From assembly GCA_023245235.1 (NCBI GenBank), contig JAHFKT010000004.1, positions 1 through 52,307 on the forward strand: 52,307 bases of DNA, read 5' to 3'. The notes beneath the pieces are model-generated. The model saw nothing but the letters and a program-made list of their open reading frames with translations. It was not told the DNA's origin and did not search any database. Position 1 is the stretch's first letter; each line of letters starts with the position of its first letter. Position numbers and translations under genes: made by a program. This stretch comes from Candidatus Yanofskybacteria bacterium (GTDB lineage: Bacteria; Patescibacteriota; Minisyncoccia; 2-02-FULL-40-12; GWA2-44-9). Below are positions 2,631-45,645 of the stretch, in pieces.

Positions 2631-3974
2631 TCAAAAATGATGCTTTGTAAATCTCCGGAAGAATATCCAGAGCAGGAAAAAATTCAGATTACCGGCGATC
2701 GAGAAAGCCGCCGCAAGACCGGCCACGCCCCAATGATAGTGGATCGCGAACAGCCAGGCACCCAGCCAATTCACCAGGATCGACACAACGGAAACGGAGA
2801 CCGGGATTGCCGTGTTCTGCAGGGCGTAGAATGCCCGGGACAGGATCGGGATCAGGCTTTGAGCCGGAATTCCGAACATGAAGATCGCGAGAACCGCAGC
2901 CGTCAGATCGACGCTTGTGCCGCGATATGATCCGATACCGAAGATGAGGTTAATGGCCCAATGCGAGAGGAAGTATCCGACGACCGAGAGCGGTACTACG
3001 ATAAGTGCCGTGCTCTTCATGGCGGCATACAGTTTTTCTTTAAATTCTTTCAACTCCTGCCCGGATGCATGCATTGAAAGGCGCGGAAAAACAGCGGTGG
3101 CGACCGATACGCCGACCACCGCGATCGGCACGAACTGGAGATTATTGGCCACGTTCAAGACTGAAATACTGCCGATGGCCATGGTTGACGCGATTGCATT
3201 CACCACGGCGGAATCGATACTGTACGCACCGAGTCCCAGTGTCCGGGGAACCATTAACTTCAAGATCTTCCTGAAATTCTGGTCCGCCAGATCAAAGACA
3301 GGCCTCCATCTGAATCCCGCGATCATGGCGGCGGTTCCCTGGATACAAAAATGCAGTAGCGCGCCGAATACTACACCCCAGCCCAGACCCAGCACTTCCG
3401 GATAGCCATGAATACGCATCAATGGAACAAAATATACGGCTCCGATGATAATACCGAAATTATACAGCACTGGCGCGATGGCATAGGCCCAAAAGCGTTC
3501 AAGCGACTGGAGAACCGAACCGAATATCGTACTCAATGAGAACAGCACCGGCGAAAGAAGCATCAAGCGCGTCAGTGAAATCGCGACCTCACGATCGGTA
3601 CCCGAAAATCCCGGCGCGATGAGCGAAACAACGCTCCCGGCAAAGAACCAGAGAACACCCGCAGAGGTGAGCACCATAAGAAATATAATGGTGGTAAAAT
3701 TCTGGGCCAGCCGCCACGCATTCGCCTCGTTGTTCTTATATTCTCCGATGAAGACCGGAATGAAAGCCGACGATACCGCCCCCAATACCAAAAGGTTGAA
3801 TACCAGATCCGGCAGCTTGAACGCACTGTAGTAGACGTCGAGCATGCGCGAAGCGCCGAAATGCGATGTCAGGATGCGATCGCGGAACAATGCCACTACA
3901 TCGGCGATAAAGCTGAAAAAGGCCAGCGCGATGCTTGCCTTCGCCACCGTTTTCAGTTTGAGATCAAAAACCAT
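2631..3974 (-). CDS. murJ: Lipid II flippase, MurJ/MviN family (short form, 447 aa)
   Basis: The protein is polytopic. Its N-terminus (FFSFIADVVALFRDRILTSHFGASRMLDVYYSAFKLPDLVFNLL) is typical of MurJ. It is followed by lepA. Confidence 0.8.
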   Translation of the reverse strand: MVFDLKLKTVAKASIALAFFSFIADVVALFRDRILTSHFGASRMLDVYYSAFKLPDLVFNLLVLGAVSSAFIPVFIGEYKNNEANAWRLAQNFTTIIFLMVLTSAGVLWFFAGSVVSLIAPGFSGTDREVAISLTRLMLLSPVLFSLSTIFGSVLQSLERFWAYAIAPVLYNFGIIIGAVYFVPLMRIHGYPEVLGLGWGVVFGALLHFCIQGTAAMIAGFRWRPVFDLADQNFRKILKLMVPRTLGLGAYSIDSAVVNAIASTMAIGSISVLNVANNLQFVPIAVVGVSVATAVFPRLSMHASGQELKEFKEKLYAAMKSTALIVVPLSVVGYFLSHWAINLIFGIGSYRGTSVDLTAAVLAIFMFGIPAQSLIPILSRAFYALQNTAIPVSVSVVSILVNWLGAWLFAIHYHWGVAGLAAAFSIAGNLNFFLLWIFFRRFTKHHF

Positions 3975-6655
3975 TATTTGAAGTTGACCTTGACCTGAAG
4001 GTCATTATCGAGCGGGCCGGTCCAGTCGTATTTAACTCCGCCCTGATTCAGGAGCGGATATGATTCGGTTGGTATCAGACCGCTCGGTTTCGACATCGAG
4101 AGCGCGAATTTCTGAACCTCCAGCCCCGGCTGTTTCTGAATATACAGCTGCCACGAGTTGTCGGCAAGCGCGCCGGAAACTTTATATCGGACGGTTACTG
4201 TCTTAGTTTGGCCGGGATCAGTGATCATCCAGAACCCGAACTCGGTCTTACCGGCCTCACTATATGTCGTAACGCCGGTAGAGCGGTCGGCCTCACCGCT
4301 CTTCTCTAAGTTGGCCAGATCGGCATCTTTCTGAAATCCGGAGTTCTGATAGTCAATGAGCGGACTGAAATTCGGTTTGTCATTGCCGCTGACCGAGATG
4401 AGCTCGGCACCGTCGGGTACCAGGATGCGCATATAAGCCGGGTTCTGTTTATTATAGAAACCGAACTTCTCGTGCCCGCCGTTATGCTGGCGGACGATAG
4501 TGAGCGTATGGATGGCCGCATCGTCATCAAATACGGTATCAAGCGCGAATGATGTATCGGTGACGGCATCGGTCTTCGAACCCTTTATGTTCGTGATTGT
4601 CGCCATCAGATAATCACCGGGCGGGCGCTGGACCTGTCCCCCGAATCCTTTATCGGACACGAAGCTCTCCAGGCTCAAATTATTGAAATACATAAGGATC
4701 TGGCGCTTATCCATTCCGCTGACCAGGGCGTTGAAGACCGAAAGCCACTGGTCGGATTTGGCCGAGTATATTTTTTTGAGAAGCAGCGGAGCGAAGTCCT
4801 TTACGATCTGCTTGGGCTGATCACGGTTGGCGCCGTACTCAACCTGGTCCTGGATGGTGGTCAGTACATTCTTTGAATCCAGTGTAAGATCGTACTGCGG
4901 CATTGAGACCGGACCGACAATATCCAGCATCGAGGAAATAAGCTCAGGATTGACTGCGATCACGCCATCAACGCTCTGGCCGGACTCTTTCTGATAGAAC
5001 CCCTCGATCTTCCTGGCGGAAGTCGGAAAGTCGATGAACCAATTTGCATCGCGCATGCCCCAATTCGGAGTGATATGCTGAAGTTGAAGCGGCGGGATGA
5101 TGTTCTCCTTCAACTGCCCGTCAAGATTGTAAACATCGTCGACGAAGAAATCATCAAGCTTGCCGTCTTTAAAGGACACGATCCCGTATGTTCCGGGAAA
5201 GCCGCCGGCCGGACGAAGTTCGCTAGAGTTTGGGAACAAGATCAAATATCGCTTAGACCCGCTGACATCAATAAGATTCCCGAAAAATTTCGCGTAATCA
5301 GCGCTCTCACTGACGGTCTGGTCGAACAGAGGCAGCTTTGACCTGAAATCGTCGAAACCCGCCCTCTTGTCATCAGGAATGATGCTTTCATCAACATCGG
5401 CCAATAATGAGTTGGCCTGGCCGATATCGGCTTTCGATGCCAGTAGTGCTTCTTTTAACGCACCGATAACGCTCCCGATGGCTACATTGTTATTGGTCGG
5501 ATCAAAAATAATGCCGGTCTTGGCGACCGCATCCATCGCCTGGGTCATTGCCGAACCGGCGTCGGCCAGCAGCTGGCCGACCTTCACGAGGTTCTTGGCG
5601 GATTTAACGGATCCGGCGCCTGGCAGTTGAGCGAACAGATCGGTGATCGTCGCACCCATAAAATTCAAACTATCGCCGGCTTTTGAAAAGTTCTGATATG
5701 CCTGTATGAAATCATGCGATGCATCCTGAAAATTAAGGCTCTTCAGGTCATCGTGGGCACTCTGCAGATCTTCGACCGCCGAAGCGCTCTCCTGGATAAC
5801 CTGATGTTTCAGGTGCGATACATAATAGATAATACCGCCGGCTGACAGCAGTGCCGCAACCGCAATAATGACGCGCCTCGATGATATCCGGAGAGATCTT
5901 AACGATACCGTAACGAGCTTTTGCTTCGTACCTTTCTCTGGCACAAAGACCGGCTGGCGGCGGACCGGTGCGAACTCTTGAATAGTTGGAACCGCAGGCA
6001 ATTGTTCAATGCGGGGAACGGGGGTATTACGCCCGATGATCCGTGCCGAATGTTCGATCTCGGATACGATACGGTCTAATTGCGGATCGGCCGGCTTGGG
6101 AGATTCGGACCCGGAAACAATACCCGGCTTCTTCGGAATGTCCGTCACGATCGTTCCCGAATCATTTTGGGAACGCGGCTGGACCTTCGGAAGTTCCTGG
6201 TCGCGTTCCCCCGGTAGAAGCAGCGGTGAGATCGGAGGGGCCGGCTTGCGGTGGATGATACGGTATCGCGGCTTGGCCGGCACGGAGGTCTCGGATGTCT
6301 GGCCTCCTATCTTCGCAAGTTCGACCTGGAAGTCAACGTCGTCATTGATCAGGGTATCGAAATCATTCTTAACACTGCGCTTCCGGGGAACATCAGTCGC
6401 TGGAGCTGGCACCGGTGCCGGCACTGATTCTGCCTCGGATTCCGGTTGAGGTTCCGGCAGTATCTCTTTTGGCCTCCTGACCGCTAAGCCCTGAGTTGGC
6501 GCATCGGTTCTGATAGAAACTTTTTTAGGCCGGTACGCGCTGAGGTTGACGACCGAGACAACCGATTCTATTTTCCGGACATCAAGAGAGCCGGAGGCAT
6601 CCACCGGCTTAATATCAAAGAGTGCCCCTTGTGCGATTCGTTTAGACTGGGGCAT
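3974..6655 (-). CDS. DUF4012 domain membrane-anchored envelope protein; N-terminal Pro-rich region, one TM helix
   Basis: It carries the DUF4012 signature block RYLILFPNSSELRPAGGFPGTYGIVSFKDGKL. A TM segment (VIIAVAALLSAGGIIYYV) follows a low-complexity P/E/S-rich N-terminus. The tracked ORF opens with TTG at 6679. I prefer the ATG at 6655 (MPQSKRIA...), which lies 7 nt downstream of a TATAAT box, but the start remains uncertain. Confidence 0.75.
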   Translation of the reverse strand: MPQSKRIAQGALFDIKPVDASGSLDVRKIESVVSVVNLSAYRPKKVSIRTDAPTQGLAVRRPKEILPEPQPESEAESVPAPVPAPATDVPRKRSVKNDFDTLINDDVDFQVELAKIGGQTSETSVPAKPRYRIIHRKPAPPISPLLLPGERDQELPKVQPRSQNDSGTIVTDIPKKPGIVSGSESPKPADPQLDRIVSEIEHSARIIGRNTPVPRIEQLPAVPTIQEFAPVRRQPVFVPEKGTKQKLVTVSLRSLRISSRRVIIAVAALLSAGGIIYYVSHLKHQVIQESASAVEDLQSAHDDLKSLNFQDASHDFIQAYQNFSKAGDSLNFMGATITDLFAQLPGAGSVKSAKNLVKVGQLLADAGSAMTQAMDAVAKTGIIFDPTNNNVAIGSVIGALKEALLASKADIGQANSLLADVDESIIPDDKRAGFDDFRSKLPLFDQTVSESADYAKFFGNLIDVSGSKRYLILFPNSSELRPAGGFPGTYGIVSFKDGKLDDFFVDDVYNLDGQLKENIIPPLQLQHITPNWGMRDANWFIDFPTSARKIEGFYQKESGQSVDGVIAVNPELISSMLDIVGPVSMPQYDLTLDSKNVLTTIQDQVEYGANRDQPKQIVKDFAPLLLKKIYSAKSDQWLSVFNALVSGMDKRQILMYFNNLSLESFVSDKGFGGQVQRPPGDYLMATITNIKGSKTDAVTDTSFALDTVFDDDAAIHTLTIVRQHNGGHEKFGFYNKQNPAYMRILVPDGAELISVSGNDKPNFSPLIDYQNSGFQKDADLANLEKSGEADRSTGVTTYSEAGKTEFGFWMITDPGQTKTVTVRYKVSGALADNSWQLYIQKQPGLEVQKFALSMSKPSGLIPTESYPLLNQGGVKYDWTGPLDNDLQVKVNFK

Positions 6656-6662
6656 ACCTTTC

Positions 6663-6668
6663 ATTATA
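6663..6668 (-). promoter_or_regulatory. Candidate -10 box (TATAAT) 7 nt upstream of the ATG at 6655
   Basis: The minus strand reads ctggTATATAATgaaaggtATGccc. Confidence 0.3.
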
Positions 6669-6705
6669 TACCAGAGCAAATGATCGACTCTGTGGAGAAA
6701 TAACG

Positions 6706-7839
6706 CTAGAAATCAGTAAGGACGCGAAGTGTTTCCCGGACGGAACGATCCCATGAAAATTCCTTGGCACGGACAAGACCTTTATCGATGCAGCGGGTCC
6801 GGAATCGCTGATCGGTCAACAACAGTTCAAGGGCCGAGGTAATGTCCGCGACATTATAGGGATCGACCAACACCGCGGCGTCTCCGGCGACTTCCGGCAG
6901 TGAAGAGTTGTGGGAAGTGACGACCGGGGTGCCGCATGCCATCGCTTCCAGAACCGGCAAGCCGAATCCCTCAAAGAAGGACGGGTAGGCGAACACCTCT
7001 GCGGTGGCATAATAGTATGGACGGTCCTCATCAGAGATATATCCGAGATATCTGATATGGGAAACTGCCGGCGAGGACTCCATCTCCCCTATAATATCAT
7101 CCGACAGCCATCCCCGGTCGCCGCCCAGGACCAGCCAGCAATCATCGAACCCGGGCACCTCTTTGAGTCGGACGAATGCCCTTATGATGGCCTTGGTATT
7201 CTTACGCGGCTCAAGAGTACTTAATGAAAATATGAAGCGCTTGGGCAGGTCATGCTTTTGCCTAAAATGTTCCAGATGTTCGAGCGTCGGCCGCTTCATT
7301 GAAACTCCCGAGTAAACGACCGAGATATTGGCCGGGTCGATGTGATACAGCTCGACCAGGTCGGATTTTGTCGACTCGGATACGGCAATGATCCGGTCGG
7401 ATAACCGGGCTTGGCGGATAGGATTCATCTCGATCGTGTGCCACAATCGTTTACCAAGAGTGAAAAATTCAGGGAACCGGAGATATGACAGATCGTGGAA
7501 TGTGGTAAAGCGTCGGCAATCGTTCGACAGCGATGCAATAAAAAAGTGCGGCGAGAAAAACACATCCACGCCGCCAAGCATCCGGTCGATCAATGGCCAA
7601 CTGAAGAACCGGTTGGCAAGGAACAGTATATTATTCGGTACCCGGTATGAATATAGGGTGACATTTTTTGCAGACAGCCAACGATACGCCGGCAGCTTCT
7701 GGCGGAATGATGAGAAAAATAACTTAAAGGTATGCTCCGGGGCCTGTTCGATCATACGGCCAACGAGCTGTTCCGCGTACTCGACAATGCCGCTGCGCCG
7801 GGAATTTCCGAGGATACGAATGTCGATACCGATGATCAT
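6706..7839 (-). CDS. Glycosyltransferase family 4 (GT-B, Glycos_transf_1)
   Basis: The C-terminal GT1 motif [25 protein letters not shown] is present. Its ATG overlaps the upstream stop codon (ATGA-type coupling at 7836-7839). Confidence 0.85.
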
Positions 7840-8912
7840 AGCTGAAGTGCGGTTTTGATGCGTTCTTTGAATTTCAAGACGTCAAAGCGTTCAGCCTGTG
7901 CCCGGCACGCGGCCGGGTCAATGGAAGCGGCATCGAAATGAAGTACGGAGTCGGCGAGAGCTTCCGGAGTCTGGTCATCGAAGAACTGCCCGGTCACTCC
8001 TTCAACCACCGTCTCAAGTGCGCCGCCGCCACGGTATGCCATCACCGGCCGGCCGGATGCCATCGCCTCAAGCGGCACGATGCCAAAATCTTCCTCCTGG
8101 GGAAATATCAGGGCCCGGGCATGTGCATAGAGGTCAGCCAAACGCCGGTCATCGACCTGATCGGCAAAAACTATATTTCTTTTTGCCAGAGCACCGAGCT
8201 TCCGGCGTTCAGGGCCGGTTCCGGCGATAACAAGCGGCAATCCAAGCTGATTGAACGCCTGGATGGCGATATCAAATTTCTTATAGGAAACCAAACGGCC
8301 GACCATCAGATAATAATCATCCGGCCTCGGTACGGAATGGAACTGGGCGACTTGGACCGGCGGATATAACATCGCGGACCGGCGATCATAATACTTCTTG
8401 ACCCGAGCAGCTACAAAATCTGAGATCGTCCAGAACTCATCAACACGGCGGGCGGCATGCTGGTCCCAGATCCGCAGGTACGATATGAACGGCAGGATCG
8501 CTTTCCTGATCATGAGCGGGAACCCGAACTCATCGACGAACTTCTGGCTATTGTCCCAAAGGAACCGCGGCGGCGTCAGGCAGTAGCAAATATGCCTGGT
8601 TTCGGGACCGGTGATCACGCCTTTGGCAAAAGAAGCTGAAACAGAAACCACCAGGTCAAAACCCCTGAAGTCAAACTGCTCGATGGCCAACGGCATCAGC
8701 GCCGGATAAAACTGATGGTGGCGTTTGGCAAACGGAAATTTCTGCAGGAATGAGGTCCTGACAACCCGGTCCTTGAACAGCCCTTTCGTCGCACCCTCGT
8801 CATACAGAAGCGTGTAGATAGGCGCACGCGGAAATAACTCGCATAGACTCGCGAGCATCCGCTCGGCTCCTCCGAACTGATTAAGATATTCGTGGACGAA
8901 GGCGATCTTCAT
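7836..8912 (-). CDS. Glycosyltransferase family 4 (GT-B)
   Basis: It begins MKIAFVHEYLNQFGGAERML and carries FPQEEDFGIVPLEAMASGRPVMA. The 28-codon N-terminal extension in the ORF track (to 8996) runs through a structured intergenic element and a -10 box, so I reject it. Confidence 0.8.
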   Translation of the reverse strand: MKIAFVHEYLNQFGGAERMLASLCELFPRAPIYTLLYDEGATKGLFKDRVVRTSFLQKFPFAKRHHQFYPALMPLAIEQFDFRGFDLVVSVSASFAKGVITGPETRHICYCLTPPRFLWDNSQKFVDEFGFPLMIRKAILPFISYLRIWDQHAARRVDEFWTISDFVAARVKKYYDRRSAMLYPPVQVAQFHSVPRPDDYYLMVGRLVSYKKFDIAIQAFNQLGLPLVIAGTGPERRKLGALAKRNIVFADQVDDRRLADLYAHARALIFPQEEDFGIVPLEAMASGRPVMAYRGGGALETVVEGVTGQFFDDQTPEALADSVLHFDAASIDPAACRAQAERFDVLKFKERIKTALQL

Positions 8913-8918
8913 GCCAGA

Positions 8919-8927
8919 ACGATAGCA
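8919..8927 (-). promoter_or_regulatory. Extended -10 (TGcTATCGT) 6 nt upstream of the GT4 ATG at 8912
   Basis: The minus strand reads ggaTGcTATCGTtctggcATGaag. Confidence 0.35.
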
Positions 8928-8937
8928 TCCGGAATCT

Positions 8938-9027
8938 AAAAGCACAACGACAGAGTTCCCTTCATCGCCAACGCCTGGCGGGCGAGGGGAACCCACTCCG
9001 AGAGCGGAATTCCGCCGTTGTGCTTTT
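8938..9027 (-). other. Structured GC-rich intergenic element, probably a complex terminator or attenuator, between the WbaP-like gene and the GT4 gene
   Basis: A 12-bp outer stem pairs aaaagcacaacg (8938-8949) with cgttgtgctttt (9016-9027). It encloses an inner stem gttccc (8955-8960) / gggaac (8987-8992) and further short helices. Confidence 0.4.
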
Positions 9028-9032
9028 ATATT

Positions 9033-10427
9033 CTATGCCGCCGAGCGGTCATTAAGCATCTTAAATATAGTCTTAAAAATGATCTTTATATCCATGCCCA
9101 GAGACCAGTTTTCGATATAGAAACTGTCTGTCTCGACCTCCTGGTCGAACGGCAGGTCTGAGCTCCCGGATACCTGGGCCAGGCCGGTGGCCCCGGCCTT
9201 AATGGCCAGGACTTTCTTGTGATGCTTCTCGTAGCGGCTGACCTCGTCGGGCTGATGCGGCCGCGGACCGACCAACGACATATCGCCTTTGAGAATATTG
9301 ATAAATTGAGCCAGTTCGTCGATCCGGTATTTTCTGATTACCCGACCGACCTTTGTAATACGCGGATCGTTCTTGATCTTAAACAGCGGCCCGTCGCTGC
9401 GCTCGTTGAATGCCGCCAGTGATGCCTTAAGAGACTCGGCTCCGCCATCAGAGTCGTATGCGATCATGCTCCGGAATTTATACAGTACGAACTCTTTATT
9501 CTTGCTGACCCGTTTTAAACGGGCGAGAACAGGACCGGGCGTATTAAGCTTGATCGCAATGGCCACGATCAGGAACACCGGCGAAAAAATGATCAGCCCG
9601 ATGAGCGCACCGATAATATCTACGACGCGCTTGAATACTTTCCCCCATCCGTCCAGGGGCGTGCGTTTGAGCTCAATGACCGGTACGCTTGAGATCAGGT
9701 CGACGTCAAAATGTTTCGTCAGTGTCTGATACAGGTTCGGCACGAATTTGAATACGATGTGGTTCTCATGACAAAAATCAACGAGTTCGACGATGTGATT
9801 GCCAGAATAGTTCGGACTGACCAACAGCACCTCATCGATCGCATCCTTGAGCCCTGCGAGAGATTCGATATTCGGACGGTCCCAGTGGGCTATGATACGA
9901 TAGCCGGCTCCGGGTGCTGATGAAATATTCTGCTTCATCTGATCAGCCAGCATATCGTCGCCTATCATCAGGACCCGTTGAATCCCGAAATCATACCGGG
10001 AGACCGCAACGTACTGGAGATAACGGACAAGCAATCGGCCCAAAGAAACAAAGATGATCGCTATTACCCACGCACCAAGGACCAGGAACCGGGAGTTGAA
10101 CAGCGTCTGACGCAAGAAAATAAAAATGATGACGGCTAAGATGGCGGCCGATGAAGCGACAAGGATCTTGGAAAATTCGGCCGTGCGCGACATGCGAACC
10201 TTCATGGAGTACAGCCCGGAAATAGCATATGTAGCGATGAATAATAAGGCCACGACTGAAACAAGAGAAAGGTAACTGAAAAGAGGCAGGTTGAATTGGA
10301 ACAGGACCGGCCTGACCCCGGCAAGCAGGGTAGTTCGAAGAAGATATGCGGCAAGTCCGGCCAAGAACAACATTACGAAGTCCACGGGCAACCGGATAAC
10401 ATTGAAGAATAAATCAGCTTTTTTCAT
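9033..10427 (-). CDS. Polyprenyl-phosphate hexose-1-phosphate transferase (WbaP / bacterial sugar transferase family)
   Basis: The C-terminal Bac_transf domain reads VFKRVVDIIGALIGLIIFSPVFLIVAIAIKL...GPVLARLKRVSKNKEFVLYKFRSM...DELAQFINILKGDMSLVGPRP. The N-terminus has TM helices. I prefer the start at MKKADLFF (10427), which is 7 nt downstream of TGaTAAACT. Confidence 0.85.
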   Translation of the reverse strand: MKKADLFFNVIRLPVDFVMLFLAGLAAYLLRTTLLAGVRPVLFQFNLPLFSYLSLVSVVALLFIATYAISGLYSMKVRMSRTAEFSKILVASSAAILAVIIFIFLRQTLFNSRFLVLGAWVIAIIFVSLGRLLVRYLQYVAVSRYDFGIQRVLMIGDDMLADQMKQNISSAPGAGYRIIAHWDRPNIESLAGLKDAIDEVLLVSPNYSGNHIVELVDFCHENHIVFKFVPNLYQTLTKHFDVDLISSVPVIELKRTPLDGWGKVFKRVVDIIGALIGLIIFSPVFLIVAIAIKLNTPGPVLARLKRVSKNKEFVLYKFRSMIAYDSDGGAESLKASLAAFNERSDGPLFKIKNDPRITKVGRVIRKYRIDELAQFINILKGDMSLVGPRPHQPDEVSRYEKHHKKVLAIKAGATGLAQVSGSSDLPFDQEVETDSFYIENWSLGMDIKIIFKTIFKMLNDRSAA

Positions 10428-10434
10428 CCTGTCA

Positions 10435-10443
10435 AGTTTATCA
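10435..10443 (-). promoter_or_regulatory. Extended -10 (TGaTAAACT) 7 nt upstream of the ATG at 10427
   Basis: The minus strand reads gtgTGaTAAACTtgacaggATGaaa. Confidence 0.4.
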
Positions 10444-10485
10444 CACGGGCCCTTAAATTTCAATCTATTTTAGCAATTCCGGTGG

Positions 10486-32368: not shown

Positions 32369-34090
32369 ATGGCTAAAAACATAGAACATATCCGGCACTC
32401 GCTCGCCCATCTTCTCGGTGCGGCGGTTTTGGAATTATATCCCGGCTCAAAGCTTGCCATCGGTCCGGCTATTGAAGACGGTTTTTACTACGACATCGAT
32501 ATTAAGGGTACGGTGTCCGATGCAGACCTGAAGGTCATTGAGGAGAAAATGCGGGAGATACTGAAGACGTGGAAGACCTTCGATGGCAAGGAAGTGTCTG
32601 CGAATGAGGCAAGGAAACAGTTTAAGGGGAATCCGTTCAAAGAAGAGATCATTACCGAGCTTGAAAAGAACGGCGAGAAGATAACTCTCTATACATCGGG
32701 TGACTTTACCGATCTCTGCCGCGGGGGTCACGTCGAGAATATTAAGGATATCGAACCGAAAGCATTCAAACTTTCCCGCGTTGCCGGCGCATATTGGCGC
32801 GGCAGCGAGAAGAATCCCCAACTGACCCGCATCTACGGCTTGGCCTTTACGACCAAAGATGAGCTGCAAAAACATCTGGCATTCTTAGAAGAGGTAAAAA
32901 AGCGTGATCATCGTGTTCTCGCTCAGCAGCTTGACCTATTCTCCCAGCATGACGTCTCACCCGGTGCTATTTTCTGGCATCCGAAAGGAATGGTGCTTTG
33001 GAAAGAACTGGAACGATTCATCCGTGCCAAGAACGACTATTACGGCTATGGCGAAGTTTCGACACCGGTGATGGTTAAAAAAGAACTCTATCAGACATCC
33101 GGCCACTGGGACCATTATCACGAAAATGGATTCTGGTTCGATGTCGATGAAGAAACATATGTTTTAAAACCGATGAACTGTCCGGAGGCGACACTTATCT
33201 ATTCGAACGGGCTCCGGTCATATCGCGACCTGCCGATACGATTAGCTGAACCGACGGGACGGTTGCACCGCAATGAGCTCAAGGGAACTCTTGGCGGCTT
33301 ATTCCGTGTCCGGCAGTTTACGCAGGATGACGCCCATGTCTTTTGCCGGCCGGATCAGATCGATGAAGAGGTCTCTTCCCTGCTGCAGTATACGAAAGAA
33401 GTATATGACACTTTCGGACTACCTATCAGCTTCCGTTTCGCCACCAAGCCTGATAAAGCCATGGGTGATCCGGCCTTATGGGAAAAGGCTGAAGCGGCCC
33501 TGGAGGGAGTTCTGAAAAAACTCAATATTGATTATCAGTTGAAAGCTAAGGACGGTGCGTTTTACGGCCCGAAGATCGATATTCATGCAAAGGATGCCAT
33601 CGGCCGTGAACATCAAGTTGCCACCATCCAGTTGGATTTCCAGATGCCGGAGCGGTTCAAGCTTGAGTATCACGATGCCGATGGCGGCATTCGACGTCCG
33701 GTCATGATCCACCGCGCGATCTACGGCTCGTTCGAACGATTCCTGGGAGTACTGATCGAACATTACATGGGCGCGTTCCCGCTGTGGTTGGCCCCCGTCC
33801 AGGTCGCCGTCATCACCATTTCAGAAAAACATCATCCGTGGGCGGAATCGGTCTTCGATAATCTCAAACGGTCAGGCATCCGCACCGAGCTCCATAATCA
33901 AAATGAGACGCTCGGCAAAAAGATCCGCAATGCCGAGATGCAGAAGATCCCCTACCTGTTCGTCATCGGTGATAAAGAAGTCGAGGCCCAAGCGGTTGCG
34001 GTCCGAAAGCGCGGCCGGGGTGATATGGGTTCGATGCAGCTTGAAGCGATACTCGCCGAGCTGAAAGAAGAGGTCGGAAACAAAAAGTAG
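32369..34090 (+). CDS. thrS: Threonyl-tRNA synthetase lacking the N-terminal TGS domain
   Basis: It starts directly in the editing/SAD domain (HIRHSLAHLLGAAV). The class II core (FRVRQFTQDDAHVF, RAIYGSFERF) and the anticodon-binding domain are present. It is 573 aa. Confidence 0.92.
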   Translation: MAKNIEHIRHSLAHLLGAAVLELYPGSKLAIGPAIEDGFYYDIDIKGTVSDADLKVIEEKMREILKTWKTFDGKEVSANEARKQFKGNPFKEEIITELEKNGEKITLYTSGDFTDLCRGGHVENIKDIEPKAFKLSRVAGAYWRGSEKNPQLTRIYGLAFTTKDELQKHLAFLEEVKKRDHRVLAQQLDLFSQHDVSPGAIFWHPKGMVLWKELERFIRAKNDYYGYGEVSTPVMVKKELYQTSGHWDHYHENGFWFDVDEETYVLKPMNCPEATLIYSNGLRSYRDLPIRLAEPTGRLHRNELKGTLGGLFRVRQFTQDDAHVFCRPDQIDEEVSSLLQYTKEVYDTFGLPISFRFATKPDKAMGDPALWEKAEAALEGVLKKLNIDYQLKAKDGAFYGPKIDIHAKDAIGREHQVATIQLDFQMPERFKLEYHDADGGIRRPVMIHRAIYGSFERFLGVLIEHYMGAFPLWLAPVQVAVITISEKHHPWAESVFDNLKRSGIRTELHNQNETLGKKIRNAEMQKIPYLFVIGDKEVEAQAVAVRKRGRGDMGSMQLEAILAELKEEVGNKK

Positions 34091-37339: not shown

Positions 37340-37365
37340 CAAAAAAAGACCGCTTTGTGCGGTCT
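37340..37365 (-). terminator. Rho-independent terminator after the ThyX-like gene
   Basis: The stem agaccgc / gcggtct has a tttgt loop and a 7-T run on the minus strand. Confidence 0.65.
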
Positions 37366-38810
37366 CAACGGTTCAAAAGATCGACTTCCGACAAGGGAGT
37401 AACCCGGGTCATGCCTTCGAGAAATACCTCTTCGTCGCGAATAAGCTGATCGATGCGGCACGCAACATCCCGGTATGAGAAGTGGCCCTTTACGCCCGAA
37501 CGCAGTTCAGCAATGTATAACGCCTCAGAAAGATGCATCTTATAGATCGTGCCGGACATAAAGCCGAACGGAATGAGATAGTCGGCATCCTGGGGTTCCT
37601 CCATGCGCCGGGCCATATTTCCGATCCAGAGCCCGACTTTTTTCATGTCGGCCCGGTACTCATCTCCCAAGCCCATCTCATCGATAAGCGCGGGAGTTTC
37701 AAATCCGTTCAGTAACGACAGCGGCTGATGGACTTGGATGCAGTTCCGGTGGCGATGCAGGTCGCGGCGGCCGCCGATATCCATGAGAATATCGAACTGA
37801 TACGGCATACCGGCCGCAAACGCGCGATGGTGGCCGTCGTGAGGACCCCTGCGCTCCATAATCTCGCGGATGACCCCTTCTTTGATATCCCAGGACCAAT
37901 CCGCTACCTGTTCCAGAAGCCGTGCGTAGGAAATAGGCGTCACTTCGTACAACAGGGTCGCAAGGATCTCGTCGAGCTTTGTTGGCGGCTTAACCAAATC
38001 CACGTAACGATCAGATTCTCTTGGTTTTATCGCAACCCGATCGGTCAGGCCCGTCAAAAACTCCCGAAGCCCTATAAGATACTCGCTTGGGTCCGCGTAT
38101 TTCATGAGCGTCGGCGCGACCGGGAGCTCATCTTTTCCTTCAGGACAGAATGGTCTTTCCTGGCAAGCTTTTTTCATGAGTTGGGCGAGGTCACGCGATG
38201 CCTGATACCGGGAGGCGCCAAGCCGAGCTATCTGCCGCTCAAGCACCCGGGCACTGGTGATCTGCCCGACATTGGTCAGAATACCGTTGAACAGCCAGTA
38301 ACGGGCGACGTCGAATGCCCGGGCTTTCATGGTCCGCTCATAATCGGCATCCTTCATTTCCGGTGACTTGGGATTCTGGCGGATCAGATATTCTTTGCAT
38401 AGCCGTGAGTATCGGTCGTATCTGTCAAATAAAAACTCGGCAACAGCAGAGAAATCGCCAGCCAGCGAAGTCCTCATGATCGATATGGGAGTAAAGCATC
38501 CGATCGGACCGCCTTCAAATATCTGATAACGCGTAGAACGTTCTTGTCCGTCCCACAGCTGTTCGTCCTCGACCTCAAAAGCCGCGATCTCCGGTATCCG
38601 CTCCAATGCGATGGGGATGTGGGCGTTATCCGCGATCGAGGCATGCCCGAACGAGAAATAGTAGCTTTCAAAGAATCGAGCCGATTTCTCGGCCGTAATC
38701 CTCCTGATGCTATCCCGGATTGAAAGTGCCGAACGGGAATACATCGCGTACGCGTAGGCAATCGTTTCCGGAGGCCATCCGGCCAATGCAATGACTTCGG
38801 ACTGTTCCAT
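37365..38810 (-). CDS. Long ThyX-like (FAD-dependent thymidylate synthase family) protein, apparently two fused Thy1-like halves
   Basis: The C-terminal half has the ThyX signature RRDLHRHRNCIQVHQPLS and the block LSEALYIAELRSGVKGHFSYRDVA. The N-terminal half keeps GHASIADNAHIPIALE...GQERSTRYQ but lacks RHR. The protein is 481 aa against about 220-250 aa for a canonical ThyX. Confidence 0.6.
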   Translation of the reverse strand: MEQSEVIALAGWPPETIAYAYAMYSRSALSIRDSIRRITAEKSARFFESYYFSFGHASIADNAHIPIALERIPEIAAFEVEDEQLWDGQERSTRYQIFEGGPIGCFTPISIMRTSLAGDFSAVAEFLFDRYDRYSRLCKEYLIRQNPKSPEMKDADYERTMKARAFDVARYWLFNGILTNVGQITSARVLERQIARLGASRYQASRDLAQLMKKACQERPFCPEGKDELPVAPTLMKYADPSEYLIGLREFLTGLTDRVAIKPRESDRYVDLVKPPTKLDEILATLLYEVTPISYARLLEQVADWSWDIKEGVIREIMERRGPHDGHHRAFAAGMPYQFDILMDIGGRRDLHRHRNCIQVHQPLSLLNGFETPALIDEMGLGDEYRADMKKVGLWIGNMARRMEEPQDADYLIPFGFMSGTIYKMHLSEALYIAELRSGVKGHFSYRDVACRIDQLIRDEEVFLEGMTRVTPLSEVDLLNR

Positions 38811-41878: not shown

Positions 41879-44034
<2,156 letters not shown>

Positions 44035-44061: not shown

Positions 44062-44088
44062 AAAAACCGGCCTAGAATGCCGGTTTTT
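44062..44088 (-). terminator. Rho-independent terminator after the PheRS gene
   Basis: The stem aaaaaccggc / gccggttttt has a 7-nt loop. It starts 3 nt after the stop codon. Confidence 0.7.
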
Positions 44089-44090
44089 AG

Positions 44091-45230
44091 CTATCTGACT
44101 TCAGCCGAGAACTGACGCTTGGTTTCGTCGTAGATTTTTTGCTGGATAGGGTCAATTTCGGCAGTCGTAAGCGTACGCTCATTGGAACGATAAATGATGC
44201 GGTAGGTGTAGCTGATCTTCCCAGTGCCGAACTTCTCCGAGTTCTCGTATTTGTCTATCAGCCGGACCTCCTCGACCAGGTCGCCGCCGATATCCCGGAT
44301 GAGGTCGAAATAGTTGTTCGGGATAAAATCCATCGCGACTACGAATGATATGTCGCGGGTAATGGGCGGATATTTGGAAACCTCTTTGAACTTGTTGCCG
44401 AGCTTGAGCTGTTTCCTGACCCGTTCGTCATTAGACCATAGAAGCCGGATATCCGGCAGTTCCATGCTGATGATGGCCAGCCGTTCCAGGCCGAAGCCGA
44501 ACGCCCAACCATTGTATTTGGATGAATCGACTCCGAGCTTATCAAGTACGCTTCCCTTCACCACGCCAGCCCCAAGCACTTCGACCCATTTGTCGTCTCC
44601 CTTATCGATCTCCATCTCAAGCGAAGGGTCCGTGTACGGGAATGTATCGCTATTGAATCGGTATTTGACCCTTGGGCCGAATACCGCTTTGGCAATATCA
44701 GAAAGCACTTTCTGAAGGTCATCCGAGGTAATGACCCGCTCGGATTTCGGCGTGAGATACCAACCGTCCATCTGATGGAACACGTTCATATGGTGCCGGT
44801 CTATCTCATCTTTGCGGTAGACTTTTCCGAACGAGAGCGAGCCGACGGACTTTCCCTGAGCGATGCGCTCTTTGATCTTGGCCTGCATCAAATAGTAATA
44901 CCACATCACGGTCGTGTGGGTACGCATGACATTCTTGTCATCAACGTAGTATGTATCGGATTTTGAGCGGGCCGGATGATCTTTCGGAAAATCGAACAGG
45001 TCAAAAGTAATATTAGTAGGCGTTATCTCCGGCACGGCGATGACATCAAAATCTTTGAAATCGGGAAGGTTGACGATGCGTTCCACCATTTCCTTAAGCG
45101 GACTGCCGGCTGTGCGCGACAGGTCGGGCATGTTTAAATAACGCTTCATGCGCTCCGATTCCGGATCGTGCTTTCCGTCTAATTGCTGCCGTATTTTCTT
45201 CTCTTCTTCTGTGTCTATGACGATATTCAT
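44091..45230 (-). CDS. pheS: Single-chain (mitochondrial-type) phenylalanyl-tRNA synthetase: PheS-like catalytic core fused to an FDX-ACB domain
   Basis: Class II motifs are present (HPARSKSDTYY, FGKVYRKDEIDRHHMNVFHQMDG, GWAFGFGLERLAII). They are followed by VSKYPPITRDISFVV...DLIRDIGGDLVEEVRLIDKY...YTYRIIYRSNERTLT, which is the ferredoxin-fold anticodon-binding domain normally found in PheT. Confidence 0.85.
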   Translation of the reverse strand: MNIVIDTEEEKKIRQQLDGKHDPESERMKRYLNMPDLSRTAGSPLKEMVERIVNLPDFKDFDVIAVPEITPTNITFDLFDFPKDHPARSKSDTYYVDDKNVMRTHTTVMWYYYLMQAKIKERIAQGKSVGSLSFGKVYRKDEIDRHHMNVFHQMDGWYLTPKSERVITSDDLQKVLSDIAKAVFGPRVKYRFNSDTFPYTDPSLEMEIDKGDDKWVEVLGAGVVKGSVLDKLGVDSSKYNGWAFGFGLERLAIISMELPDIRLLWSNDERVRKQLKLGNKFKEVSKYPPITRDISFVVAMDFIPNNYFDLIRDIGGDLVEEVRLIDKYENSEKFGTGKISYTYRIIYRSNERTLTTAEIDPIQQKIYDETKRQFSAEVR

Positions 45231-45240
45231 GGTCAGTAAA

Positions 45241-45645
45241 TTACGTGGTCTCGATCGAATCCTTGTGGGGATATTCCTTCAGCAGCAGTGCCTCAATTAT
45301 GATCATGATGAGGACGGCACCGAAGAATGAATACGGATTGAACATATTCAGGCGTCGGATCATTATCAGAATGACACTCAACAGTCCGGCCAATGCGCCT
45401 CTCCGGAACGATACGGCCAATGAACCGTGGTCTATACCGAAAGATACTATTTTACGGTGGCGCATTGTGTCGATAGCATGGAACACGAGCGTTACCAGAC
45501 TCGACACCACAAGAAATATCAGTACTAACACCAGCCCCTTCACCGGATACCCGGCCTGATACGGATCAAACGTACGTCCGATAAACCCGAGGGCCGTTCC
45601 GGCAAGCACGAGGGTACCGACGATGATCAGGATGGGCCAGCGCAT
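45241..45645 (-). CDS. Hypothetical membrane protein (4 TM, 134 aa)
   Basis: It has four hydrophobic helices and lies 10 nt upstream of the PheRS gene. Confidence 0.55.
   Translation of the reverse strand: MRWPILIIVGTLVLAGTALGFIGRTFDPYQAGYPVKGLVLVLIFLVVSSLVTLVFHAIDTMRHRKIVSFGIDHGSLAVSFRRGALAGLLSVILIMIRRLNMFNPYSFFGAVLIMIIIEALLLKEYPHKDSIETT

What the first reader, a model, noticed from the sequence alone, without database searches (positions are those of the whole stretch)
44091..45230. Mitochondrial-type single-chain PheRS in a bacterial context
Bacterial PheRS is normally an (alpha-beta)2 enzyme encoded by adjacent pheS and pheT genes. This 379-aa ORF is built differently.
- It joins a PheS-like class II catalytic core, ending at motif 3 (GWAFGFGLERLAII), directly to a ~95-aa C-terminal module: SKYPPITRDISFVV...FDLIRDIGGDLVEEVRLIDKY...YRIIYRSNERTLT. 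That module is the ferredoxin-fold anticodon-binding (FDX-ACB/B8) domain, which normally sits at the C-terminus of PheT.
- The junction (PDIRLLWSNDERVRKQL) and the FDX-ACB block read, from my memory of human FARS2, almost position for position like the monomeric mitochondrial enzyme.
- The N-terminal coiled coil of bacterial PheS is missing.
- No pheT follows. A terminator and then gyrB lie downstream.

A monomeric PheRS would fit an extremely reduced genome. It would also bear on the origin of the organellar enzyme.
Basis: partly seen in the sequence, partly recalled or inferred. Interest (0 to 1): 0.72.

Follow-up and report, generated by a model that had tools for sequence, protein, structure and literature searches.

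The report
Single-chain PheRS in CPR bacteria
This gene encodes a one-piece phenylalanyl-tRNA synthetase built like the human mitochondrial enzyme; it is conserved in hundreds of ultra-small (CPR/Patescibacteria) bacterial species and forms the bacterial sister group of the mitochondrial enzyme, which bears on where that enzyme came from.

Summary
Window 44091-45230 (-) encodes a 379-aa protein with a PheS-type class II core (PF01409, 188 bits) fused to a C-terminal FDX-ACB domain (PF03147, 84 bits). It has no PheS N-terminal domain, and the window has no pheT. A terminator and then gyrB follow.

- **Structure:** the AlphaFold model (pLDDT 96) superposes full length on apo human mitochondrial PheRS (TM 0.8).
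- **Not contamination:** the gene lies in a housekeeping block of a Patescibacteria contig. Relatives occur in more than 600 GTDB species genomes, usually next to gyrB.
- **Conservation:** about 70% identity, as high as GyrB and higher than ThrRS (49%).
- **Family:** Phe- and ATP-binding motifs are kept. It is not NCBI's "SrmL mystery ligase", and it scores just under the pheS_mito cutoff (250.7 against 258.35).
- **Phylogeny:** CPR single-chain enzymes form a clade (89%) sister to the eukaryote plus giant-virus clade (91%).
- **Extra clue:** some lineages encode a PheT-B2-type tRNA-binding domain directly upstream, apparently fused in one case.

I could not test whether pheT is absent genome-wide. 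One related genome with classical pheS-pheT lacks the single-chain gene. The most likely reading is a functional, editing-free and probably sole PheRS. I found no paper describing it.

The parts
44091..45230 (-). CDS of the single-chain PheRS (379 aa, ATG start, TAG stop at 44093-44091)
   Evidence: ORF list. Pfam PF01409 + PF03147. NCBIfam pheS_mito 250.7 bits. AF2 pLDDT 96.1.
44409..45116 (-). Class II PheS-type catalytic core (aa 39-274). Includes RTHTT (aa 103-107), motif 2 KVYRKDEIDRHHMNVFHQMDG (aa 136-156), Phe-pocket FPYTDPS (aa 197-203) and motif 3 GWAFGFGLERLA (aa 241-252).
   Evidence: Pfam tRNA-synt_2d 188.2 bits. Motif alignment with E. coli PheS, mitochondrial forms and SrmL. Invariant residues R103, R139, D144, H147, G245, R250 across 67 single-chain proteins.
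44379..44459 (-). Inter-domain hinge/linker LPDIRLLWSNDERVRKQLKLGNKFKEV (aa 258-284), a signature shared with mitochondrial PheRS
   Evidence: Alignment. D260, R262 and Q274 are invariant and W265 and D268 nearly invariant in all single-chain forms.
44094..44378 (-). C-terminal ferredoxin-fold anticodon-binding domain (FDX-ACB, equivalent to PheT B8), aa 285-379
   Evidence: Pfam PF03147 83.6 bits, model 1-94/94. TIGR00472 pheT_bact positions 690-798. PDB PheT beta-chain C-termini E ~2e-6.
44062..44088 (-). Intrinsic-terminator-like hairpin directly after the stop codon (AAAAACCGGC-attctag-GCCGGTTTTT)
   Evidence: Read directly from the sequence. The consensus scanner did not list it on this strand.
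44006..44034 (-). Promoter-like site (TTGATT-17-TACAAT with upstream TG) ahead of gyrB. It marks gyrB as a separate transcription unit that is nevertheless positionally linked.
   Evidence: gyrB lies on the same strand within 2.5 kb downstream in 44 of 65 related loci that have room.
45241..45645 (-). Upstream 134-aa ORF (hydrophobic N-terminus, likely membrane protein; no Pfam hit), 10 nt from the PheRS start and possibly co-transcribed. It is not the tRNA_bind partner seen in other lineages.
   Evidence: The same ORF was called on an independent contig of the same organism (L008).

Best explanation
The ORF encodes a functional single-chain phenylalanyl-tRNA synthetase of the same build as mitochondrial PheRS.

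Proposed mechanism:
1. The class II core binds Phe and ATP and forms Phe-AMP.
2. The C-terminal FDX-ACB domain reads the GAA anticodon of tRNA-Phe after swinging away from the core on the conserved PDIRLLWS hinge, as in the closed-to-open transition of the human enzyme.
3. Phe is then transferred to the tRNA.

There is no B3/4 editing domain, so accuracy against Tyr must come from the active site alone.

In this organism, and in a large part of the Patescibacteria (Paceibacteria/Minisyncoccia, Doudnabacteria and the code-25 Gracilibacteria/Absconditabacteria lineage), it most likely replaces the classical (alpha-beta)2 enzyme as the housekeeping PheRS.

- Shown: architecture, motifs, fold, strong purifying conservation, conserved housekeeping position, wide distribution, sister relationship to the mitochondrial clade.
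- Inferred: catalytic activity on tRNA-Phe, monomeric state, and being the only PheRS in the genome.
For: - Domains and HMM scores.
- Best sequence and fold match is human mitochondrial PheRS over both domains: TM 0.78-0.80 and rmsd ~3.2 A to the closed apo form, against 0.58 to the open tRNA-bound form. Classical PheS matches only the core.
- Substrate-contacting positions, mapped via E. coli PheS to T. thermophilus numbering (my own knowledge), are kept or conservatively changed: H105, T107, R139, Q153, D155, F197, Y199, A243. True SrmL proteins diverge at these positions (IHHMDM, HPYTNEG, WALGMG).
- 7177 homologues at E<=1e-10, and more than 600 GTDB species genomes.
- Median identity to the window protein across 80 genomes is 70%. 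The same comparison gives GyrB 65, GatB 64, NusG 78, ThrRS 49, MiaA 58, IMPDH 45 and Tmk 36.
- The position is conserved: PheRS, gyrB, secE, nusG, rplK.
- In 12 of 80 genomes a PheT-B2-type tRNA_bind gene lies directly upstream, and in a 13th (L129) it is in one ORF with the PheRS.
- No PheT B3/4-B5-CLM signal in 1.31 Mb around the gene in 88 loci plus the window.
- A Paceibacterales genome with classical adjacent pheS-pheT has only one K01889 gene, so it has no single-chain copy. This fits mutual exclusion.
Against: - pheT/pheS absence was not tested on any whole genome that carries the gene. The tools return only +/-10 kb around a hit, and no CPR pheT seed could be obtained.
- The mutual-exclusion argument rests on one annotated genome.
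- The score is slightly below the curated pheS_mito cutoff (250.7 against 258.35).
- Three pocket positions differ from canonical PheRS (S->T107, E->D155, F->Y199). All three are invariant within the family, so a shifted specificity cannot be excluded.
- NCBI curators call a related bacterial single-chain family (SrmL) a 'mystery ligase', so this architecture does not guarantee PheRS function.
- There are no biochemical data.
Confidence: 0.78

Rival explanations
1. Accessory paralogue. The genome also has a classical alpha-beta PheRS elsewhere, and this protein is a second, specialised enzyme, for example a back-up or stress PheRS, or one that charges a particular tRNA isoacceptor.
For: Whole-genome absence of pheT was not tested. 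Classical pheS-pheT does exist within Parcubacteria and in many other CPR (Mukai et al. 2017, PMC5370408). The SrmL family shows that PheS-like single-chain paralogues exist in bacteria.
Against: - Genomes of this size (the one complete example, CP066690.1, is 0.92 Mb) would not be expected to keep redundant aaRS (inference).
- The gene is more conserved than ThrRS and sits in a fixed housekeeping position in hundreds of species.
- The one annotated classical-type genome lacks it.
- No classical pheS or pheT appears in 1.31 Mb of flanking DNA.
Confidence: 0.15
2. Non-canonical ligase. Like NCBI's 'PheS-related mystery ligase SrmL', it uses the PheRS scaffold for a different substrate or acceptor.
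For: It scores 243.5 bits on the SrmL model, nearly as high as on pheS_mito. Family-invariant changes sit in the Phe pocket (T107, D155, Y199).
Against: - The score is below the SrmL cutoff of 300, while a true SrmL scores 402 and only 93 on pheS.
- SrmL forms its own 100%-supported clade and has diverged in motif 2, the pocket and motif 3, where this protein keeps the PheRS consensus.
- The FDX-ACB domain still matches PheT B8, whereas SrmL P0258 does not.
- Linkage to a PheT-B2-type tRNA-binding module.
Confidence: 0.05
3. Eukaryote-derived gene. The sequence is eukaryotic contamination of the assembly, or a recent transfer of a nuclear FARS2-type gene into one bacterium.
For: The best solved-structure hits are human mitochondrial PheRS. 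Giant viruses clearly carry eukaryote-type copies.
Against: - The gene is embedded in bacterial housekeeping genes, with uniform GC of 49-54% across the window.
- The same synteny is seen in a complete 923 kb Patescibacteria genome and many MAGs.
- The CPR clade (89%) lies outside the eukaryote + giant-virus clade (91%). In the first, full-length tree, grouping the Paceibacteria family with the eukaryote-type clade got 0/100 bootstraps.
- An ancient eukaryote-to-CPR transfer at the base of the clade is not excluded. That concerns origin, not what the gene is now.
Confidence: 0.02

Closest known systems
Mitochondrial/organellar monomeric PheRS (human FARS2, yeast MSF1; TIGR00469 pheS_mito; 'PheRS-M' in AARS Online, PMC11580382)
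   Same: - One chain with a PheS-type core, the PDIRL(L/F)WS hinge and an FDX-ACB domain.
- No coiled-coil N-domain and no editing, B5 or B2 modules.
- Motifs 2 and 3 are nearly identical.
- The predicted fold superposes on the apo closed form at TM ~0.8.
- A close relative (P0121, 63% identical) passes the TIGR00469 cutoff.
   Different: - Encoded in bacterial (CPR) chromosomes.
- No targeting peptide.
- Lacks the ~30-40-aa insertion after motif 2 seen in animal enzymes.
- Has a family-specific segment after RTHTT (VMWYYYL...).
- Pocket variants T107, D155 and Y199.
- Forms a separate sister clade.
- Scores 250.7 against the 258.35 cutoff.
Classical bacterial PheRS: PheS (TIGR00468) + PheT (TIGR00472), (alpha-beta)2
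   Same: The catalytic core is homologous to PheS (167.7 bits; ~35% identity to E. coli PheS). The C-terminal domain is homologous to PheT B8 (79.9 bits). In some lineages a PheT-B2-type domain is encoded next to it or fused.
   Different: One gene instead of two. The PheS N-terminal coiled coil (PF02912) and PheT B1, B3/4 (editing), B5 and B6/7 (CLM) are all missing. It is below both curated cutoffs. All single-chain forms separate from classical PheS with 100% bootstrap.
NCBIfam NF051887 'PheS-related mystery ligase SrmL'
   Same: Bacterial, single-chain, PheS-like core with a C-terminal extension of similar length. It shares the PDIR hinge motif (PDIRYLRS).
   Different: This protein scores 243.5 (cutoff 300), and true members score ~400. 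SrmL has altered motif 2 (IHHMDM), pocket (HPYTNEG) and motif 3 (WALGMGLDRL). Its C-domain no longer matches PheT B8. It is a separate 100%-supported clade.
Giant-virus PheRS (e.g. Tupanvirus soda lake)
   Same: Single-chain, no presequence, 340-370 aa, same two Pfam domains.
   Different: The viral proteins pass the pheS_mito cutoff (283-308 bits) and group with eukaryotes, not with the CPR clade.

Membership tests
Mitochondrial-type single-chain PheRS (TIGR00469 / PheRS-M) | PheS-type class II catalytic core with motifs 1-3 | tested here: met
   PF01409 188.2 bits. Motifs aligned.
Mitochondrial-type single-chain PheRS (TIGR00469 / PheRS-M) | FDX-ACB anticodon-binding domain fused C-terminally on the same chain, with no PheS N-terminal coiled coil | tested here: met
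   PF03147 83.6 bits at aa 285-379. PF02912 not detected.
Mitochondrial-type single-chain PheRS (TIGR00469 / PheRS-M) | Whole-protein score at or above the curated TIGR00469 cutoff (258.35 bits) | tested here: not met
   250.7 bits. This is borderline: relative P0121 scores 264.3.
Mitochondrial-type single-chain PheRS (TIGR00469 / PheRS-M) | Full-length fold equivalent to human mitochondrial PheRS | tested here: met
   AF2 pLDDT 96.1. Foldseek TMq 0.78-0.80 and rmsd 3.1-3.6 A over ~389 columns to 5mgv/3cmq.
Mitochondrial-type single-chain PheRS (TIGR00469 / PheRS-M) | Orthology: branches within the eukaryotic organellar clade | tested here: not met
   The CPR clade (89%) is sister to the eukaryote + giant-virus clade (91%). 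In the first, full-length tree, the Paceibacteria family joining the eukaryote-type clade got 0/100.
Mitochondrial-type single-chain PheRS (TIGR00469 / PheRS-M) | Active as a monomer; charges tRNA-Phe; no editing | not testable with these tools
   Absence of an editing domain is shown by domain content. Activity and oligomeric state need biochemistry.
SrmL, PheS-related mystery ligase (NF051887) | Score at or above the curated cutoff (300 bits) | tested here: not met
   243.5 bits. True member P0258 scores 402.1.
SrmL, PheS-related mystery ligase (NF051887) | SrmL-type divergent motif 2, pocket and motif 3 | tested here: not met
   This protein keeps FHQMDG, FPYTDPS and GWAFGFGLERLA. SrmL has IHHMDM, HPYTNEG and GWALGMGLDRL. 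Separate clade.
Classical bacterial PheS alpha subunit (TIGR00468) | Score at or above the cutoff (237.45) and N-terminal coiled-coil domain | tested here: not met
   167.7 bits. No PF02912.
Classical bacterial PheS alpha subunit (TIGR00468) | Partner pheT (B3/4, B5, CLM) adjacent or elsewhere in the genome | tested here: inconclusive
   Absent from the 52 kb window and from 1.31 Mb around the gene in 88 related loci. Whole genomes could not be searched.

The most novel reading that the evidence does not exclude
The single-chain PheRS design (alpha core + hinge + B8 domain) arose once. The mitochondrial PheRS of all eukaryotes shares that origin with a bacterial lineage now represented by the CPR/Patescibacteria. 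In this reading the organellar enzyme was acquired from a CPR-like bacterium rather than invented in eukaryotes or inherited from the alphaproteobacterial pheS-pheT. In these bacteria it is the sole, editing-free cytoplasmic PheRS. Lineages with an upstream or fused PheT-B2 module would preserve intermediate stages of the reduction from pheS-pheT.
Probability: 0.3. Interest if true: 0.85.

Novelty: new member of a known kind. Interest (0 to 1): 0.6.

Why it matters
- **Textbook exception.** Textbooks state that PheRS is (alpha-beta)2 everywhere except in organelles. A one-chain, editing-free PheRS serving as the housekeeping enzyme in hundreds of bacterial species would overturn that.
- **Translation fidelity.** It would give a natural test of how translation tolerates loss of Tyr-tRNA-Phe proofreading.
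- **A tractable enzyme.** It would provide a small bacterial model of the disease-linked human FARS2 enzyme.
- **Origin of the mitochondrial enzyme.** The origin of mitochondrial PheRS is not settled, as far as I know. A well-sampled bacterial sister clade, with apparent intermediates carrying a B2-type module, makes the question testable by phylogenetics.
- **Annotation and marker sets.** NCBI labels most of these proteins 'hypothetical'. KEGG-style annotation calls them 'alpha chain'. One CPR protein-family study clusters alpha and beta together (PMC6744442). Completeness estimates that rely on the pheS/pheT models (TIGR00468 and TIGR00472, which to my knowledge are in the GTDB bac120 marker set) would count these genes as missing in these lineages.

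Tried and rejected
**1. Direct test for pheT in genomes that carry the gene. It failed for lack of a CPR pheT/pheS seed and of whole-genome access.**
- A single-protein scan of viral contigs found nothing.
- A synthetic alignment of classical-PheS motifs was first rejected as too degenerate.
- The tightened version, run on metagenome contigs, returned only Proteobacteria-like loci, because the tool keeps the 80 hits closest to the first sequence among the first 600 pattern matches.
- The same alignment on viral contigs gave 12 loci, none CPR-like.
- I planned to match contig lengths (for example 923,469 bp) between pheT hits and single-chain hits. I dropped this because any obtainable pheT query would fill the 120 listed rows with its own close relatives.

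**2. Supplementary tables of CPR genome papers.**
- Useful only for Kuroda et al. 2022 and 2024.
- Negative or not held for PMC5220378, PMC12281837, PMC9297842, PMC11188291, PMC8080830 and PMC8406219.

**3. Literature.** Ten searches found no paper on a bacterial or CPR monomeric PheRS or on SrmL.

**4. Rejected readings.**
- SrmL membership.
- The short 'mitochondrial-type' proteins without presequences being prokaryotic: they are giant-virus proteins.
- Eukaryotic contamination.

**5. Limits of the phylogeny.** The trees are neighbour-joining on Kimura or BLOSUM distances, because no maximum-likelihood program was available. The position of SrmL and the direction of transfer remain unresolved.
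Full report
**The observation.** The ORF is exactly as described: window 44091..45230, minus strand, ATG start, 379 aa.
[quoted passage not shown] The PheS N-terminal coiled-coil domain is not found.
- NCBIfam scores: TIGR00469 pheS_mito 250.7 (cutoff 258.35), NF051887 'PheS-related mystery ligase SrmL' 243.5 (cutoff 300), TIGR00468 pheS 167.7 (cutoff 237.45), and TIGR00472 pheT_bact 79.9 over the last 110 residues only.
- Among solved structures the best sequence matches are human mitochondrial PheRS (E 4e-56). Classical PheS follows (E ~1e-35, core only), and PheT matches only through its C-terminal B8 domain (E ~2e-6).
- Directly after the stop codon there is a hairpin with a T-run on the coding strand (44088..44062). 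A promoter-like site and gyrB follow.
- About 40 of the window's large ORFs were scanned with Pfam: LepA, MurJ, glycosyltransferases, PGK, TIM, TopA, ParAB, FolD, UppP, TsaC, RNase III, NusB, DnaE, ThrRS, MiaA, GatB, ThyX-like, Tmk, NusG, GyrB, an AMP-binding enzyme and IMPDH. None is pheS or pheT, and a six-frame PheT/PheS HMM scan of the window agrees.
- GC is uniform at 49-54%.

**Whose gene it is.**
- A search of 5.8 billion proteins gave 7177 hits at E<=1e-10. The best 120 are 71-78% identical, 377-419 aa long, and carry the same two Pfam domains. Where named, they come from Parcubacteria/Patescibacteria MAGs (Liptonbacteria, Sungbacteria, Yanofskybacteria, Paceibacterota).
- NCBI calls them 'hypothetical protein' and JGI 'PheRS alpha chain'. 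The truncated UniRef strings begin 'phenylalan...'. One submitter used 'Phenylalanine--tRNA ligase'.
The record titles cover Yanofsky-, Giovannoni-, Zambryski-, Nomura-, Brenner- and Doudnabacteria, Spechtbacterales and Minisyncoccia.
- One homologue lies on a complete 923,469-bp genome, CP066690.1.
- The neighbourhood PheRS, gyrB, secE, nusG, rplK recurs. gyrB lies on the same strand within 2.5 kb downstream in 44 of 65 loci that have room.

**How constrained it is.** Median identity to the window's proteins, measured over the same 80 genomes:

| Protein | Median identity (%) |
|---|---|
| Single-chain PheRS | 70 |
| NusG | 78 |
| GyrB | 65 |
| GatB | 64 |
| MiaA | 58 |
| ThrRS | 49 |
| IMPDH | 45 |
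| Tmk | 36 |

 It behaves like a core information-processing gene and is more conserved than another aaRS.

**Is it a PheRS?**
- Aligned with E. coli PheS, eukaryotic mitochondrial forms and SrmL, the protein keeps RTHTT, motif 2 (VYRKDEIDRHHMNVFHQMDG), the aromatic pocket (FPYTDPS) and motif 3 (GWAFGFGLERLA).
- By my knowledge of the T. thermophilus and E. coli structures, these segments hold the residues that contact Phe and ATP.
- Three positions are conservative, family-invariant variants: S->T107, E->D155 and F->Y199.
- True SrmL proteins (P0258 scores 402 bits on the SrmL model, only 93 on pheS, and has no PheT-B8 match) have diverged at the same places: IHHMDM, HPYTNEG, WALGMGLDRL. SrmL membership is therefore rejected.
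- An AlphaFold2 model built from a 67-sequence alignment is very confident (pLDDT 96.1, pTM 0.91).
- Foldseek places it on apo ('closed') human mitochondrial PheRS over both domains (TMq 0.78-0.80, rmsd 3.1-3.6 A, ~389 columns). It matches the tRNA-bound 'open' form at 0.58, and classical PheS only over the core (~0.55).
- This fits the hinge mechanism described for the human enzyme (the open, tRNA-bound state is the 3TUP entry; the hinge motion itself is from my own knowledge).

**An unexpected supporting clue.**
- I built a PheT HMM from 53 classical pheT genes recovered and scanned 1.31 Mb (88 related loci plus the window).
- There was no hit to the B3/4-B5-CLM part of PheT.
- In 12 loci, however, a 135-172-aa ORF immediately upstream of the single-chain gene matches PheT's B2 region. 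In a 13th, L129, one 514-aa stop-to-stop ORF carries tRNA_bind + core + FDX-ACB.
- The small protein's best solved relatives are a YtpR-like tRNA-binding protein and the B2 domains of bacterial PheT (E ~1e-13). The MetRS and TyrRS appended domains score far worse (E ~1e-4).
- So in one subclade three PheRS modules (B2, alpha core, B8) are encoded together without the editing and B5 modules. The window's own lineage lacks this partner.

**Evolutionary placement.**
- A representative-level search (1.84 billion clusters) found only 244 clusters at E<=1e-30.
- The proteins of 340-370 aa without presequences that pass the pheS_mito cutoff are giant-virus proteins. Tupanvirus soda lake is named, and other hits sit on contigs of 300-520 kb.
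- A third search revealed three further groups:
  - a second Patescibacteria subfamily of ~380 aa (Portnoy-, Staskawiczbacteria);
  - a small group labelled Oligoflexia;
  - P0131, whose 13 in-frame UGA codons align with conserved Gly positions where the alignment is informative. That means genetic code 25, so it comes from Gracilibacteria/Absconditabacteria.
- Neighbour-joining on 247 core columns, with 15 classical PheS as outgroup and 100 bootstraps, gave:

| Grouping | Bootstrap (%) |
|---|---|
| All single-chain forms against classical PheS | 100 |
| Eukaryotes + giant viruses | 91 |
| CPR clade (both Paceibacteria subfamilies, 'Oligoflexia' group, code-25 protein) | 89 |
| SrmL monophyly (its position is unresolved) | 100 |

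- An earlier full-length tree agreed: the Paceibacteria family joining the eukaryote-type clade got 0/100.
- The fusion therefore seems to have arisen once. The CPR and mitochondrial clades are reciprocally monophyletic sisters, and the direction of transfer is open.

**Is it the only PheRS?** I could not test this directly.
- Many CPR have a PheRS-beta lacking B2 (Mukai et al. 2017, PMC5370408).
- A Paceibacterales genome (PMX_810_sub, 'Ca. Yanofskybacteria/UBA5738') has adjacent classical pheT (2046 bp, ~681 aa; B3/4, CLM, B5, FDX-ACB) and pheS (1062 bp, ~353 aa; with the N-domain). It has exactly one K01889 gene, so no single-chain copy (Kuroda et al. 2022 and 2024 supplements).
- The trait is therefore lineage-specific, and that one data point fits mutual exclusion.
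- All attempts to obtain a CPR pheT seed, or an annotation table for a genome that carries the single-chain gene, failed.
- I rate 'sole housekeeping PheRS' at about 0.7. The reasons are the small genome size (inference), the very strong conservation, the fixed housekeeping position and the intact active site.

**Prior knowledge.**
- Ten full-text searches found no description of a bacterial or CPR monomeric PheRS, or of SrmL.
- Reviews list only three PheRS forms: bacterial, archaeal/eukaryotic cytosolic, and mitochondrial (PMC3275996, abstract).
- AARS Online lists PheRS-M with a mitochondrial example (PMC11580382).
- One CPR protein-family study clustered alpha and beta subunits into a single family, which would hide this form (PMC6744442).
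- Databases already hint at the identity through the UniRef, JGI and one submitter's names. It is therefore a new, bacterial member of a known enzyme kind that has gone unnoticed, not a new kind of system.

**Verdict.** The best explanation is a functional, editing-free, single-chain PheRS that is probably the housekeeping enzyme of a large part of the Patescibacteria and is the bacterial sister of mitochondrial PheRS. Interest 0.6.

Noticed in passing
L125, L130, L136, L148, L151, L153, L155, L156, L158, L162, L164, L167 (ORF ending ~40-100 nt before the PheRS start, e.g. L164:9483-9911); L129:9587-11128: In 12 of 80 related genomes a 135-172-aa PheT-B2-type tRNA_bind (PF01588) gene lies directly upstream of the single-chain PheRS. 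In a 13th, L129, one continuous 514-aa ORF carries tRNA_bind + core + FDX-ACB. The window itself lacks this gene.
   Followed up: partly
L182:9463-10833 (protein P0131), GC 32.5%: A 456-aa single-chain PheRS homologue has 13 in-frame TGA codons. Where the alignment is informative, they fall at positions that are conserved Gly in the family. This implies genetic code 25 (Gracilibacteria/Absconditabacteria). The gene caller had translated them as Trp.
   Followed up: yes
Proteins P0136, P0146, P0156, P0289-P0407: The 'mitochondrial-type' PheRS of 340-370 aa without presequences are giant-virus proteins. Tupanvirus soda lake is named, and other hits sit on contigs of 300-520 kb. They pass the pheS_mito cutoff and group with eukaryotes.
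   Followed up: partly
L184:10001-11245 (P0125, MAG GCA_019694465.1 labelled Oligoflexia): A small group of 394-447-aa single-chain PheRS labelled Oligoflexia nests inside the CPR clade next to the Portnoy/Staskawicz subfamily. This is either transfer out of CPR or a mis-binned contig. The neighbouring genes (peptidase M20, enolase-superfamily proteins, FrhB-like protein) do not look CPR-like.
   Followed up: partly
L001:12174-15515 (CP066690.1): The gyrB downstream of the PheRS in the complete Sungbacteria-labelled genome encodes 1113 aa and contains an intein (PF14890). The window's gyrB (692 aa) has none.
   Followed up: no
window 37365-38810 (-): A 481-aa ORF has only a weak, two-stretch Thy1 (ThyX) match (57 bits). 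It is just 24% identical to the 535-aa ThyX at the same position in L005, although the flanking Tmk and GatB are conserved. Its 5' end overlaps the gatB ORF as listed.
   Followed up: no
window 32369-34090 (+) and L102-L181: ThrRS is much less conserved across these genomes (median 49% identity) than the single-chain PheRS (70%). That is an unusually slow rate for the PheRS in a fast-evolving lineage.
   Followed up: partly
window 3974-10463 (-): A 901-aa DUF4012 protein is followed by two GT4 glycosyltransferases and a Bac_transf sugar transferase, with MurJ just downstream. This looks like a cell-envelope polysaccharide cluster.
   Followed up: no
NCBIfam NF051887 (SrmL); proteins P0258, P0264, P0224: NCBI's 'PheS-related mystery ligase SrmL' is a distinct single-chain clade with an altered active site. 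Its position relative to the CPR and eukaryote clades is unresolved (57% against 41%). Its host organisms and gene context were not examined.
   Followed up: no
L136 (DASPNG010000107.1) and many L1xx record titles: Record labels are unreliable. One locus is titled 'Candidatus Binatia', and dozens are titled 'uncultured Candidatus Saccharibacteria', yet they carry proteins 66-76% identical to the window's. These are probably mis-binned contigs or generic labels.
   Followed up: no
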